Shown here: in pieces, positions 21,001 to 24,000 of the stretch | Position numbering within the stretch: the first letter of the stretch is position 1 | How the letters are laid out: every line of letters starts with the position of its first letter | UHGV virus genome: UHGV-0140686 | Length of the DNA stretch: 50,702 bases | Strand: one strand, 5' to 3' | Origin: a virus | Position numbers: made by a program

Positions 21001-24000
21001 AGAATCTCTTGGAGTAACGTCAGCAGAAATTACAGTTGCCACAGGTAAGAAAAACATGGTTTCTCACTGGTTCGGTCTTAGCCAGTGGCAGTTACCGAAC
21101 GAAGCCGATTACCTGAAATTGCAGACGTTGTTCCAGCAAATTGCCAGAGATAAACACTCACGAAACGAACTTGCTAAGCCCCATCACCAGCTTGTCGCAA
21201 CATGGCAATCTCTTAACCGGAAATACTGCGAACTTCAGCAGGAGTATCACTGCCTGCGGAGGCCGTTTAGTGTTTCCGTCTCGGTGCCGTATACCGACGT
21301 GTGGACTCATAAGCCTGTTCAGTTCTACCCAGGTAAGCACCCATGCGAAAAACCTGCCGATATGCTCCAGCAGATCATTACTGCAAGCAGTCGGCCGGGG
21401 GAGGTCGTAGCTGATTTCTTTGCTGGTTCTGGTTCCACACTAAAGCAAGCTGCTCTACTCGGGCGGAGTGGAATCGGCGTTGAACTGGAAACCGAGCGGT
21501 TTGAACAGACGGTCAGTGAAATGCGCAATTTGCTGGTTTAGCTCAGTAGGTAGAGCACCTGCCTTGTAAGTAGGATGTCGGTGGTTCGATTCCGTCAACC
21601 AGCACCAGAATGGTAGTGGGGCCAGCGCCTGAAGCGAATCCCAATCACGATGCGAAACATACATGTCCCAGCTGCTCGCAAAGTGACTCCAAAGCAGGGC
21701 CACAATTTGAATCTGCGGCAGCTGAGGCTGGCCGCTCCGTATCAGTAAGCGGATCCACCAGGCTCGCATTCGCGGGCCTTTTTCGTATCTACGCCACGCT
21801 CGGCGTTATTTAACCACAGAGCCTTTCAGGGGTGAGCCATAGGGAATAGTCAGTGTGACTGTCTCTGTGGGCTGATCATTCCTGAGCGCTGGCTCACCCG
21901 CTAAAAGGAAAGTCACTATGTTTGGATTCGGTAAAAAAGCACGTAAGGCAGTAGCAGAAGTTAAGAAGATGGAGAACCGCGATGCGGTAGAGGCAACTGT
22001 CTGGGGCGCATACTCGATTGCGTATGCGGATGGCACCTGTGATGCAAAAGAGATTGCGGTACTGGAGAAAACTATCTCCGCGCTGCCGGCATTTGCCCCG
22101 TTCGCTGGTGAAATTGCCCAGATGAGTTCGAACATTCGCGCTCGTTACGAAGCTTCCCCGCGTTCAGCTAACGCCGAAGCTATTCGTCAACTGGCTGATG
22201 TTGCCGGTACCTCTGATGCAGTGGATGTTCTCTGCCTCTGTCTGGATATTGCAGATAACGATGGTATTGGTGAAGAAGAAGAGGTGGCTCTGAAGAAAAT
22301 CTCCCAGGCTCTGCAGCTTCCTCTGGATCAGTATCTGTGATTGGCAAACTTCGCTGGGGCGCTGCCGGGGTGCTTTTGTTCTTGGTGGTTGCCATCGACT
22401 TCACCAGCAAAATGATGTCCATCCTGGCAGATGGCGTGCTGGTGGCCGGAGTAATTGCTTTACTCTGGCCGTTAATTAAGTCCAGTGAATAACACTGTGC
22501 AAAAGGCATCTTCGGGTGCCTTTGACAGAGTGCTTGCTATTGACGATGGGAATGAAGTAGCTATAAATTATTGGCGTGGTGAATCCCCCTGTGCGGAGGG
22601 GCGGAAACAGCTTAAATGGAATCCTTATGATTCACTCGGACCGCAAGTCATGGTTGCTGACCAAAGGCTTACTGAGAGGCACTCAGCACCACACCCCAAT
22701 TTAAGCCCACGTTAACGCGTGGGCTTAACATTAATGGCGTATTGCGAGTCTGATCGCTATTGCTTCCAGGTCGGAGAGGAATGTTTCCTCGTAAACTGCA
22801 TTGTTCATTGCGTCTATCGCAGCCTTACGATCTTGTTCATCACAGTATTCGTAGCGGTCTGCAATTTGAGTAATCATCTCAATAGAGATGTCGTCACCAC
22901 GCAACTTGTCGCTATTGATGATGTCGATGGCCGCTTTGATTTTCCCCATTTCAAGCTCCATCGCCTCGAGTAAGCGATTTGATAAGTTTTCCGGTTGGGA
23001 CTTCCCAGACACGAAATTCCTCACGGTACGGTCAGAAATACCGAGGGCGCGTGAAAGTGCAGACTGCCACTTATCCCCATATACCGCTTCCCCAACAGCG
23101 CGTAATTTTTCCAGATTGTTCATAGCATCTCACCTTTAGGCCCGCATCACGCGAGGCTATCAGAATTTTAAATGACGTAGCTGTTGATGATGGCTTCAGC
23201 GCTGTCGGCGTCAGTTGCATTGCGATACAGGTCTTCGACAATTTCGGCCTCGCGGTCAAGGTCGATGAAATCGATCATACCGTGATTGAACAGAAAAGTT
23301 TTTGCATCGCTGATTGAGTTGAACATTTCGAAACCCTCGTTGGTTATCGGTTGGCCAGTTGCCTTACCGTGAAAACATCTTATCAATTTCCTAGTTGTTA
23401 GGAAATATCCAAAAGTGCTATTAATTCCTAATAACTAGGAAATTAACTTTCAAGCTTACGGGAATCATCCTCGACGTGCTTTGTTGATAAATCCGGCCCG
23501 TTAAGCCTGTTTCTATTTCCCCTCATTACTGAGAGGACTCACAGCAATAAGAGGGGCCTATGTCCGATCCTTTAACTGGTACCGGCCTTATTTTTGGAGG
23601 CGGGTTAATTGGTTCTGTCGCTTATGGCGTTATTACTCATACCGATTTTGGTGTGGTGTTTGGAGCCTTTGGTGGTGCGGTGTTTTATGTGGCAACGACC
23701 GCGAACCTGACACGAGGGAGGCAGATAGCCTACTTCATGACATCGTTTATTGTCGGTGTTCTGGCTGCTGGACTATTAGGCTCAAAATTTACTGCCTGGA
23801 CAGGCTATACAGACCGCCCGCTTGATGCGCTCGGTGCAGTGGTGGCATCAGCTATCACTATCAGGGTCCTGACTTTCATCAACAGCCAGGATCTGAGCAG
23901 CCTGTTCGGAATACTTTCCCGATTTAGGGGAGGAGGTTCGAGTGGTAATAAATGACCCTGCTGCACTGGCCAATGCTGTTATTTGTGTCGTTATCGTCTG

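What the first reader, a model, noticed from the sequence alone, without database searches (positions are those of the whole stretch)
21527..21607. Methyltransferase stop codon lies inside a tRNA-Thr gene
The last four codons and the TAG stop of the methyltransferase (21539..21541) fall within the first 10 nt of the tRNA-Thr(TGT) (21532..21607). RNase P cleavage at the tRNA 5' end would remove the stop codon from the mRNA, coupling tRNA maturation to methyltransferase expression or to non-stop decay. Phage-borne tRNAs in the Q-to-lysis interval are known; this overlap is not something I recognise as described.
Basis: seen in the sequence. Interest (0 to 1): 0.6.

Follow-up and report, generated by a model that had tools for sequence, protein, structure and literature searches.

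The report
Prophage methylase stop codon inside tRNA-Thr
In this Klebsiella-type lambda-like prophage, a DNA methylase gene really does end inside a threonine tRNA gene, but comparison with relatives shows a tolerated leftover of gene shuffling, of a rare kind already described elsewhere, not a conserved regulatory device.

Summary
The 349-aa N6-adenine DNA methyltransferase ORF (20492..21541) ends at TAG 21539..21541. That TAG is positions 8-10 of a complete tRNA-Thr(UGU) gene (21532..21607; Rfam 69.9 bits), so the overlap is 10 nt.

It is not an artefact or a one-off. The same junction occurs on at least 24 public contigs carrying the identical protein, in three 90%-identity methylase clusters from Klebsiella and Raoultella, and in 16 of 39 IMG/VR prophage contigs that share this methylase 3' end.

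Comparison points to shuffling, not design:
- The same tRNA is usually free-standing behind the Q gene (66 of 77 loci).
- An unrelated gene (phrog_17248) ends at the same tRNA TAG.
- About 80 species-level methylase homologues have no overlapping tRNA.
- In at least 11 loci the tRNA has been cut down to a 10-32 nt stub that still supplies the methylase stop.

The overlap is best read as a by-product of mosaic recombination at a tRNA boundary. RNase P cleavage would indeed leave a stop-less methylase mRNA, but that is inferred, not shown. The same model was already proposed for selB-selC overlaps (Mukai 2021).

Verdict: a new member of a known, rare kind, of moderate-low interest.

The parts
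20492..21541 (+). N6-adenine (beta-class, DPPY) DNA methyltransferase CDS, 349 aa, ending ...EMRNLLV*
   Evidence: ORF list. Pfam PF01555 N6_N4_Mtase E 7.9e-40 and PHROG DNA methyltransferase families. Identical protein is WP_138827761.1, found in K. pneumoniae and Raoultella.
21532..21607 (+). Complete tRNA-Thr(UGU) gene with encoded CCA
   Evidence: ARAGORN. Rfam RF00005 69.9 bits. Across 26 distinct family variants, 98.2% of cloverleaf cells are paired and two T-stem pairs show compensatory changes.
21532..21541 (+). The 10-nt overlap: tRNA positions 1-10, equal to the last base of Leu347, then Leu348, Val349 and the stop
   Evidence: Read directly from the sequence.
21539..21541 (+). Methylase stop codon TAG, equal to tRNA U8-A9-G10
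21551..21553 (+). Second in-frame TAG (tRNA positions 20-22), a back-up stop
21565..21567 (+). Anticodon TGT (tRNA positions 34-36)
21608..21759 (+). Conserved non-coding spacer between the tRNA and the terminator. It is shared with the tRNA-less Kp4866-6-type relatives.
   Evidence: Alignments. No Rfam match.
21760..21785 (+). Intrinsic-terminator-like hairpin (AGGCTCGC-ATTC-GCGGGCCT) followed by a T run; likely 3' end of non-antiterminated transcripts
   Evidence: The hairpin and T run are also present in Kp4866-6 (L001) and L096.
18644..19420 (+). Q antiterminator gene, upstream context. The methylase and tRNA lie in the Q-to-lysis moron region.
   Evidence: Pfam Antiterm E 4.7e-42 and phrog_127.

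Best explanation
This is a real, heritable overlap on one strand, created by recombination. A mobile phage tRNA-Thr(UGU) gene, which in most related prophages stands alone behind the Q antiterminator gene, became joined to the last three codons of a late-region DNA adenine methyltransferase gene. The join removed the methylase's own stop codon. The tRNA's near-universal U8-A9-G10 (TAG) took over as the stop, which shortened a variable and dispensable C-terminal tail by one residue.

The methylase and the tRNA are most likely made from one transcript. I found no promoter-like site or terminator between them, and a terminator-like hairpin lies about 150 nt downstream of the tRNA. RNase P must cut at 21531/21532 to make the tRNA, and each cut leaves a methylase mRNA with no stop codon. 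That mRNA would be degraded and its stalled ribosomes rescued. Ribosomes terminating at the TAG must in turn unwind the tRNA's acceptor and D stems. On any one RNA molecule, tRNA maturation and continued methylase translation therefore exclude each other.

The comparative record says this is a tolerated side-effect, not a conserved regulatory device.

Shown here: the overlap, the quality of the tRNA, its spread, its origin as a mobile cassette, and repeated tRNA loss with the stop kept.
Inferred: co-transcription, RNase P cleavage in this context, and the non-stop fate of the mRNA.
For: Anatomy.

The tail is dispensable and the tRNA is absent from most homologues. Eighty species-level methylase homologues (61-89% identical) have hypervariable tails after ...ERFxQT..E and no overlapping tRNA. 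Three have tRNA-Met/Arg genes starting 43-52 nt after the stop.

The same tRNA is usually free-standing. Seventy-seven IMG/VR loci carry the upstream flank CCTGAACCAGATT|GCTGG; 66 of them have an intact tRNA, with no long ORF entering it in the loci examined.

The fusion junction GAAATGCGYAATTT|GCTGGTTTAG is identical in alleles that differ by up to 21% at the nucleotide level, which fits a single origin.

Mosaic boundaries sit exactly at the tRNA ends. At least four different downstream modules begin right after the CCA. In four loci only the last 13 nt of the methylase gene remain in front of the tRNA.

A second, unrelated gene (L141, phrog_17248, E 3.8e-54) ends at the same TAG.

The tRNA is not needed by the methylase. 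Eleven of 39 loci keep only a 10-32 nt tRNA stub, with five distinct breakpoints, yet still end ...LLV*/LLG*. Two carry decayed tRNAs. Eight have the tRNA interior replaced, giving a 359-aa protein. These states coexist with intact ones within methylase clusters no more than 3% divergent.

No promoter-like site was found on the + strand between 19300 and 22389. A terminator-like hairpin lies at 21760-21779.

RNase P separation and fast decay of an upstream mRNA have been shown experimentally for secG-leuU (PMC2241853).
Against: The intact overlap has persisted across three 90% protein clusters, up to 21% nucleotide divergence and several species. It is therefore not strongly harmful and could be mildly useful.

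No expression data exist. Co-transcription, RNase P cleavage and the non-stop fate are all inference.

The promoter scan is a crude consensus match and could miss a promoter for the tRNA inside the methylase gene.

The window's own tRNA variant has three G.U pairs, two of them adjacent in the T stem, so its activity is not certain.
Confidence: 0.6

Rival explanations
1. Evolved regulatory coupling. The overlap is kept by selection because RNase P maturation of the tRNA deliberately limits or times methylase expression through non-stop decay, or makes tRNA yield depend on methylase translation.
For: The junction is invariant and the intact arrangement spans alleles up to 21% divergent and several Klebsiella and Raoultella species. 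An analogous model was proposed for the conserved selB-selC overlaps (PMC8124441). RNase P cleavage destabilises upstream mRNA in secG-leuU.
Against: There is no known functional link between a DNA methylase and tRNA-Thr. Most homologues lack any tRNA. The tRNA is mostly free-standing. The tRNA has been lost repeatedly and recently while the methylase stays intact. An unrelated gene is fused the same way, and every frame into the tRNA gives a stop regardless.
Confidence: 0.15
2. Inert relic. In this context the tRNA sequence is not matured into a working tRNA, either because of the weak T stem or because ribosome traffic keeps it unfolded. It then serves only as the methylase 3' end and 3' UTR, and no coupling occurs.
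For: The window variant has G30.U40, G50.U64 and U51.G63. Methylase-fused copies include decayed versions: L149, L151 (anticodon TAT), L105 and L172. The single-sequence minimum-energy fold is not a clean cloverleaf, z = -1.8.
Against: The Rfam score is high at 69.9 bits. The acceptor stem is intact. G1-C72, C2-G71, G35 and U36 are present (the ThrRS identity set, from my own knowledge). CCA is encoded and U is at -1. The changes in the window variant are structure-preserving G-C to G.U transitions. ACA makes up 21% of the prophage's Thr codons, so there is something for this tRNA to read.
Confidence: 0.15
3. Conflict-driven instability. RNase P cleavage costs enough methylase expression that selection repeatedly removes or disables the tRNA in methylase-fused lineages.
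For: tRNA loss or truncation is seen in 19 of 38 informative methylase-fused loci, plus 2 more with decayed tRNAs, against 10 of 76 free-standing loci. Losses are nested within methylase clusters no more than 3% divergent.
Against: The counts are not phylogenetically independent. The number of distinct events is similar in the two contexts (about 7 against about 6). Moron turnover and recombination at tRNA boundaries explain the pattern without any cost. Intact fusions remain the commonest state.
Confidence: 0.08
4. Assembly or annotation artefact, or a tRNA fragment belonging to the prophage attachment site.
For: None beyond prior suspicion. Phages do integrate into tRNA genes.
Against: The same junction appears on at least 24 independent contigs and in many IMG/VR contigs. 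The tRNA is full length and sits about 20 kb from the integrase (1..1185), between Q and the lysis genes.
Confidence: 0.01

Closest known systems
selB-selC overlaps in Proteobacteria and Nitrospirae (Mukai 2021, Int J Mol Sci 22:4605, PMC8124441)
   Same: A protein ORF runs into a tRNA gene on the same strand. In Dyella and Luteibacter the stop codon lies inside the tRNA. tRNA remnants left inside the ORF still shape the C-terminus (S. meliloti). Close relatives have lost the overlap. The same model was proposed: tRNA processing yields a non-stop mRNA, so protein and tRNA are alternatives.
   Different: There the protein (SelB) binds the very tRNA it overlaps, which gives a rationale for balancing the two, and the overlap is conserved across orders. 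Here the partners have no known functional link, the host is a prophage moron region, the stop is at tRNA nt 8-10 instead of 46-48, and the tRNA is frequently lost. Both cases are bioinformatic only.
E. coli secG-leuU mRNA-tRNA co-transcript (Mohanty & Kushner, NAR 2008, PMC2241853)
   Same: An mRNA and a downstream tRNA lie on one transcript that ends in a Rho-independent terminator. A single RNase P cut makes the tRNA 5' end and defines the mRNA 3' end, after which the mRNA decays in under 30 s.
   Different: secG keeps its stop codon, with a 14-nt spacer before leuU. Here the spacer is -10 nt, so the cut removes the stop. Processing at this locus has not been tested.
Late-region tRNA morons of lambdoid and Stx phages (933W ileZ-argN-argO type; from my own knowledge)
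   Same: tRNA genes lie between Q and the lysis genes on the late-transcript strand. Relatives L013, L024 and L060 have methylase followed by tRNA-Met(CAT) and one or two tRNA-Arg genes.
   Different: In those the first tRNA starts 43-52 nt after the methylase stop, so there is no overlap.
Animal mitochondrial tRNA punctuation and tRNA/CDS overlaps (e.g. tRNA-Lys inside cox1 of Armadillidium vulgare, as cited in PMC8124441)
   Same: tRNA excision defines mRNA ends, and tRNA genes can overlap coding sequence on the same strand.
   Different: Those occur in compact organelle genomes, where mRNA stop codons are often completed by polyadenylation after the cut. Here the cut would remove a complete stop, and no genome-compaction pressure applies.

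Membership tests
tRNA (Rfam RF00005), isoacceptor Thr(UGU) | Cloverleaf with 7-bp acceptor stem, D, anticodon and T arms, and conserved U8, G18G19 and the T-loop sequence TTCGA | tested here: met
   ARAGORN. Rfam 69.9 bits against a gathering score of 29. 98.2% of stem cells are paired over 26 variants, with 2 compensatory pairs.
tRNA (Rfam RF00005), isoacceptor Thr(UGU) | Anticodon UGU plus the ThrRS identity elements G1-C72, C2-G71, G35, U36 (the identity set is from my own knowledge of E. coli tRNA-Thr) | tested here: met
   All are present in the sequence 21532-21607. Aminoacylation itself cannot be tested here.
tRNA (Rfam RF00005), isoacceptor Thr(UGU) | Expressed and matured (RNase P 5' cut, 3' CCA end) | not testable with these tools
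   CCA is encoded and U is at -1, but no expression data are available.
Beta-class N6-adenine/N4-cytosine DNA methyltransferase (Pfam PF01555) | Profile match above the curated cut-off, with the DPPY catalytic motif before a C-terminal FxGxG AdoMet motif | tested here: met
   PF01555 at 137.6 bits against a cut-off of 26.7, covering residues 29-340. TDPPYF lies near the N-terminus and FFAGSGST lies in the last ~40 residues.
Same-strand CDS/tRNA overlap with the stop codon inside the tRNA (selB-selC type, PMC8124441) | The ORF's stop codon lies within a complete tRNA gene on the same strand | tested here: met
   TAG 21539-21541 equals tRNA positions 8-10.
Same-strand CDS/tRNA overlap with the stop codon inside the tRNA (selB-selC type, PMC8124441) | The overlap is conserved across diverged lineages | tested here: inconclusive
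   It is present in three 90% clusters and across up to 21% nucleotide divergence. It is absent from 80 species-level homologues and has been lost repeatedly.
Same-strand CDS/tRNA overlap with the stop codon inside the tRNA (selB-selC type, PMC8124441) | A functional link between the protein and the overlapped tRNA | tested here: not met
   The same tRNA is free-standing in 66 of 77 loci and is fused to an unrelated phrog_17248 gene in L141. The methylase persists without the tRNA.
mRNA-tRNA co-transcript separated by RNase P (secG-leuU type, PMC2241853) | Same strand, no promoter or terminator between the CDS and the tRNA, and a terminator downstream of the tRNA | tested here: met
   The overlap rules out an intervening terminator. 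No promoter-like site was found on the + strand between 19300 and 22389, and a terminator-like hairpin lies at 21760-21779. This is only a consensus scan.
mRNA-tRNA co-transcript separated by RNase P (secG-leuU type, PMC2241853) | RNase P-dependent cleavage that generates the mRNA 3' end | not testable with these tools
   This needs RNA end-mapping in wild-type and rnpA(ts) cells.
Lambdoid late-region (Q-to-lysis) moron | Located between the Q antiterminator and the holin/endolysin genes, on the late-gene strand | tested here: met
   Q is at 18644-19420, the holin at 23560-23955 and the endolysin at 24223-24852, all on the + strand. Integrase, terminase and capsid genes confirm a prophage.

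The most novel reading that the evidence does not exclude
The overlap is a working kinetic switch or a site of conflict. On each late transcript, RNase P maturation of tRNA-Thr and ribosome termination at U8-A9-G10 compete, so that tRNA processing materially throttles methylase output through non-stop mRNA decay and tmRNA tagging. That cost would then drive the recurrent, recent truncation of the tRNA seen specifically in methylase-fused prophages.
Probability: 0.15. Interest if true: 0.6.

Novelty: new member of a known kind. Interest (0 to 1): 0.35.

Why it matters
If RNase P cleavage really competes with translation termination here, this prophage family would be a ready-made natural experiment for how tRNA processing and translation interfere on one RNA. 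The family already offers intact, decayed, truncated and replaced tRNA versions behind almost identical methylase genes.

It also shows concretely that tRNA genes act as recombination joints in the Q-to-lysis region of lambdoid prophages, and that a tRNA's U8-A9-G10 can be recruited, and then fossilised, as a protein stop codon.

For annotation, it means that CDS/tRNA overlaps of this kind should not be 'corrected' automatically. As it stands, the locus is a curiosity with precedent and does not represent a new mechanism.

Tried and rejected
1. Assembly artefact. Rejected: the identical junction is on at least 24 contigs and in many IMG/VR contigs.

2. Attachment-site tRNA fragment. Rejected: the tRNA is complete and about 20 kb from the integrase.

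3. An alternative tRNA 5' end that avoids the overlap. Rejected: the 7-bp acceptor stem needs 21532-21538.

4. STnc100 (22545-22731) as the pR' leader, which would have put the methylase and tRNA outside the late operon. Dropped: in Stx2 phages STnc100 lies 75 nt downstream of stx2AB (PMC12370729). The real late promoter was not located. A sub-threshold TTGCAA-N17-TATTGT match, followed by the terminator-like hairpin at 19519-19538, sits just after Q, but this is only a guess.

5. The ~80-nt Kp4866-6 segment that replaces the tRNA, as a degenerate tRNA. ARAGORN and Rfam find nothing and it has no significant fold. Only GCTGG at the 5' end and CGT-AACCGGCAC at the 3' end resemble the tRNA ends, so I read it as a replacement of the tRNA interior.

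6. A leader hairpin that sequesters the acceptor strand. The fold of 21500-21640 is not better than shuffled sequence, z = +0.75.

7. DNA for the variant tails ...LLG...CLLGQ and ...CLLGQVDR. Only the ...LLG tail was recovered, through a window-derived pattern.

8. E. coli genomes and the annotated phage collection hold no copy of the junction, so I could not inspect how annotators handle the overlap.

9. Literature searches for this specific overlap found nothing.
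Full report
**1.

The window carries a lambda-like prophage. The integrase is at 1-1185 (-), the large terminase at 28358-30094 and the capsid gene at 32113-33333. The local gene order on the + strand is:
- a DUF968/HNH gene (17585-18643)
- Q antiterminator (18644-19420)
- two small ORFs (19646-19837 and 19978-20310)
- an N6_N4 DNA methyltransferase (20492-21541; Pfam PF01555, E 7.9e-40)
- tRNA-Thr (21532-21607)
- a terminator-like hairpin (21760-21779)
- TerB/TciA-like and TciB-like genes (21918-22492)
- an STnc100 element (22545-22731)
- a minus-strand HTH gene
- holin (23560-23955) and endolysin (24223-24852)

The methylase ORF ends ...AAT TTG CTG GTT TAG, with the TAG at 21539-21541. 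ARAGORN places tRNA-Thr(tgt) at 21532-21607, and Rfam's tRNA model scores 69.9 bits. The acceptor stem GCUGGUU/AACCAGC fixes the 5' end at 21532, so the stop codon is tRNA U8-A9-G10 and the overlap is 10 nt.

**2. The stop inside the tRNA follows from the junction**

All three frames entering this tRNA hit a stop inside it: TAG at 8-10, TAG at 16-18 and TAA at 36-38. A second in-frame TAG follows at 20-22. Of 53 distinct tRNAs in the loci I fetched, 42 have TAG at positions 8-10. The real question is why the tRNA's 5' end sits inside the end of the methylase gene.

**3. The junction is real, widespread and older than one clone**

- The identical 349-aa protein (WP_138827761.1) is encoded on at least 24 public contigs, including a 5.43-Mb NCBI chromosome. 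All those examined have the same tRNA junction at 99.6-100% identity, although a downstream minus-strand module is present in some and absent in others.
- Two further 90%-identity clusters (P0002 and P0003, 89% identical to the window protein; 9 and 469 member sequences) also end ...MRNLLV. Their contigs carry the tRNA at the same place.
- Named cluster members come from K. pneumoniae, K. michiganensis, K. aerogenes, Raoultella ornithinolytica and R. planticola.
- Methylase alleles with an intact overlapping tRNA differ by up to 21% at the nucleotide level.

**4. Most relatives do not have the overlap**

Eighty species-representative loci encode methylase homologues 61-89% identical to the window protein, typically in the order Q, small ORF, methylase, lysis genes. 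None has a tRNA overlapping the stop. Three (L013, L024, L060) have tRNA-Met(CAT)/tRNA-Arg genes starting 43-52 nt after the stop, and one has a tRNA-Thr(AGT) 344 nt after it.

The C-terminal tails after ...ERFxQT..E vary in sequence and length. The commonest form is 350 aa, ending E-[IV]-R-x-L-x-x-x*. The window's E-M-R-N-L-L-V* is therefore the native gene up to codon 347, with only the last codons and the stop replaced by tRNA sequence.

**5. The tRNA is a mobile cassette that is usually free-standing**

I searched IMG/VR with the tRNA core and found 51 contigs:
- 11 are methylase fusions.
- Most of the rest have the non-coding flank ...CCTGAACCAGATT|GCTGG..., which lies downstream of a Q-like gene and its terminator.
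- In four loci (L123, L129, L143, L144) only the last 13 nt of the methylase gene (AAATGCGCAATTT) remain in front of the tRNA. The junction therefore travels with the tRNA.
- In L141 an unrelated 102-aa gene (phrog_17248, E 3.8e-54, covering 100 of 106 profile positions) ends ...FENKLV* at the same tRNA TAG.

A census with the free-standing flank gave 77 loci. Of these, 66 have an intact tRNA and 10 are truncated, from about six distinct events.

Downstream of the intact methylase-tRNA unit, homology to at least four different modules starts exactly after the CCA. The tRNA's ends are mosaic joints.

**6. The methylase does not need the tRNA**

I ran a census using only the methylase 3' end (GAAATGCGYAATTTGCTGG), which is unbiased with respect to the tRNA. 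It gave 39 IMG/VR loci:
- 16 with an intact tRNA, plus one cut off by a contig end
- 2 with decayed tRNAs (L149; and L151, where the anticodon is now TAT, with stem and T-loop damage)
- 11 where only the first 10-32 nt of the tRNA remain, with five different breakpoints, and the methylase still ends ...LLV*/LLG* at the tRNA-derived TAG
- 8 of the Kp4866-6 type
- 1 with a 7-nt stub and no methylase

In the Kp4866-6 type, the tRNA interior is replaced by about 65 unrelated nt. GCTGG and CGT-AACCGGCAC survive at the two ends, the TAG is gone, and the ORF runs on to 359 aa.

Within methylase clusters no more than 3% divergent, intact, decayed and truncated states sit side by side. tRNA loss is therefore recurrent and recent, and the stop codon survives it as a fossil.

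**7. The tRNA itself looks functional in the family, and plausibly in the window**

Twenty-six distinct full-length variants keep 98.2% of cloverleaf cells paired. Most stem changes are G-C to G.U. One variant has a doubly compensated T stem (GGCGG/CCGTC to GCGGG/CCTGC).

The window's variant differs from the consensus at C16T and G26A, and by two structure-preserving transitions that give G30.U40 and U51.G63. It has G1-C72, C2-G71, G35 and U36, which are the E. coli ThrRS identity elements (from my own knowledge). It also has an encoded CCA and a U at -1.

ACA makes up 21% of Thr codons in the prophage (12.2 per 1000 codons; prophage G+C 50.8%). I believe this is higher than in Klebsiella core genes, but I did not test that.

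**8. Mechanism**

- Shown: the two genes share 10 nt on one strand. No promoter-like site was detected on the + strand between 19300 and 22389. A terminator-like hairpin follows the tRNA by about 150 nt.
- Inferred: both genes are transcribed together, probably as part of the Q-dependent late transcript. By position they occupy the slot that stx and the tRNAs occupy in Stx phages. I could not locate pR' with confidence.
- Inferred from established RNase P biology: to make the tRNA, RNase P must cut between 21531 and 21532. That leaves ...AAUUU-3' with no stop codon. Ribosomes would run to the end and need rescue, and the mRNA would decay.
- The E. coli secG-leuU transcript shows experimentally that a single RNase P cut separates an mRNA from a downstream tRNA, that the co-transcript lives less than 30 s, and that the released mRNA is then degraded. 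It also shows that a downstream terminator slows RNase P (PMC2241853).
- Conversely, a ribosome sitting on the TAG covers roughly tRNA positions 1-20 (general footprint knowledge). Translation therefore transiently unfolds the tRNA.

On one RNA molecule the two outcomes exclude each other. How much this matters depends on rates that nobody has measured.

**9. Design or accident**

The evidence in sections 4-6 favours accident. The junction appears to have a single origin, the partners are functionally unrelated, the tRNA is usually elsewhere, another gene is fused in the same way, and the tRNA is frequently lost while the methylase is kept.

Against pure neutrality, the intact fusion has lasted across substantial divergence. 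tRNA loss also looks more frequent in the fused context: 19 of 38 informative loci, plus 2 decayed, against 10 of 76 free-standing loci. These counts are not phylogenetically independent, and the number of distinct events is similar in the two contexts.

I put about 0.6 on a tolerated by-product, about 0.15 on selected coupling, about 0.15 on a tRNA that is inert in this context, and under 0.1 on conflict-driven loss.

**10. Comparison with what is known**

The closest precedent is Mukai 2021 (PMC8124441). That paper describes:
- selB ORFs that contain tRNA-Sec or end inside it (stop at tRNA nt 46-48 in Dyella and Luteibacter)
- remnant tRNA sequence still translated as a C-terminal extension
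- relatives that have lost the overlap
- the explicit model that tRNA processing creates a non-stop mRNA

This locus matches that kind in geometry and in the remnant phenomenon. It fails the one feature that gave that case its rationale, a functional link between the protein and the tRNA.

It also resembles secG-leuU, but with a spacer of -10 nt in place of +14, and the late-region tRNA morons of lambdoid phages, but with an overlap. I found no paper describing this phage methylase/tRNA-Thr overlap. It is absent from the E. coli and annotated-phage collections at the similarity levels searched; the nearest phage record, Kp4866-6, is the tRNA-less form and is unannotated.

**11. Verdict**

This is a new member of a known, rare kind. 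Interest is moderate-low (0.35). Its main value is as a natural allelic series for testing interference between RNase P and translation, and as a clean illustration of tRNA boundaries acting as recombination joints, with a tRNA-derived stop codon left behind as a fossil.

Noticed in passing
window 22545-22731 (+): Rfam STnc100 (RF02076) match at 72.3 bits, between the tciB-like gene and the lysis cassette. A promoter-like TTGACG-N18-TAAATT lies at 22540-22569. In relatives the element always sits between the moron region and the lysis genes and is sometimes duplicated (L013, L085). In Stx2 phages it lies just downstream of stx2AB (PMC12370729).
   Followed up: partly
L141 (IMG/VR 2537562101_000012), tRNA at 5694 in the tRNA-forward orientation (the locus as stored): A second, unrelated gene (102 aa, phrog_17248, E 3.8e-54) also ends (...FENKLV*) at TAG 8-10 of the same tRNA-Thr. 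This is an independent CDS/tRNA overlap.
   Followed up: partly
L156-L158, L165, L166, L159, L167, L175, L154, L171, L174 (IMG/VR): The methylase genes keep a 10-32 nt stub of the tRNA 5' end that still provides their stop codon, although the rest of the tRNA has been replaced. Five distinct breakpoints are seen.
   Followed up: yes
L001 4137-4215 (Klebsiella phage Kp4866-6) and 8 IMG/VR loci: The tRNA interior is replaced by unrelated sequence. Only GCTGG and CGT-AACCGGCAC survive at the ends, and the methylase reads on to 359 aa (...EHRPPQPNPLP*). The origin of the inserted ~65 nt is unknown.
   Followed up: partly
L085 4314-4361 (-), also L108/L134 and L188/L193/L210/L228: Truncated copies of the same tRNA (5' part only) lie in the free-standing context between Q and STnc100. 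tRNA fragments litter this region.
   Followed up: partly
window 21823-21893 (+): A long inverted repeat (GGGTGAGCCA...TGGCTCACCC) lies immediately upstream of the TerB/TciA-like gene start at 21918. It drew only weak hairpin-type Rfam hits.
   Followed up: no
window 21455-21769 (-): A 104-aa ORF antisense to the tRNA and the methylase 3' end is called as a gene in several public assemblies. It has no Pfam hit on record and is probably spurious.
   Followed up: no
window 22731-23123 (-) and the adjacent 52-aa ORF: A minus-strand HTH-gene module between STnc100 and the holin is present in some otherwise near-identical prophages and absent from others (L087, L088, L090-L092 against L086, L089, L095).
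   Followed up: no
window 21608-21759 (+): A ~150-nt non-coding spacer between the tRNA and the terminator is conserved, and is shared with the tRNA-less relatives. It has no Rfam match and its function is unknown.
   Followed up: partly
window 19453-19538 (+): A sub-threshold promoter-like TTGCAA-N17-TATTGT lies just after Q, followed by a strong terminator-like hairpin at 19519-19538. This is a candidate pR'/tR' pair and has not been verified.
   Followed up: no
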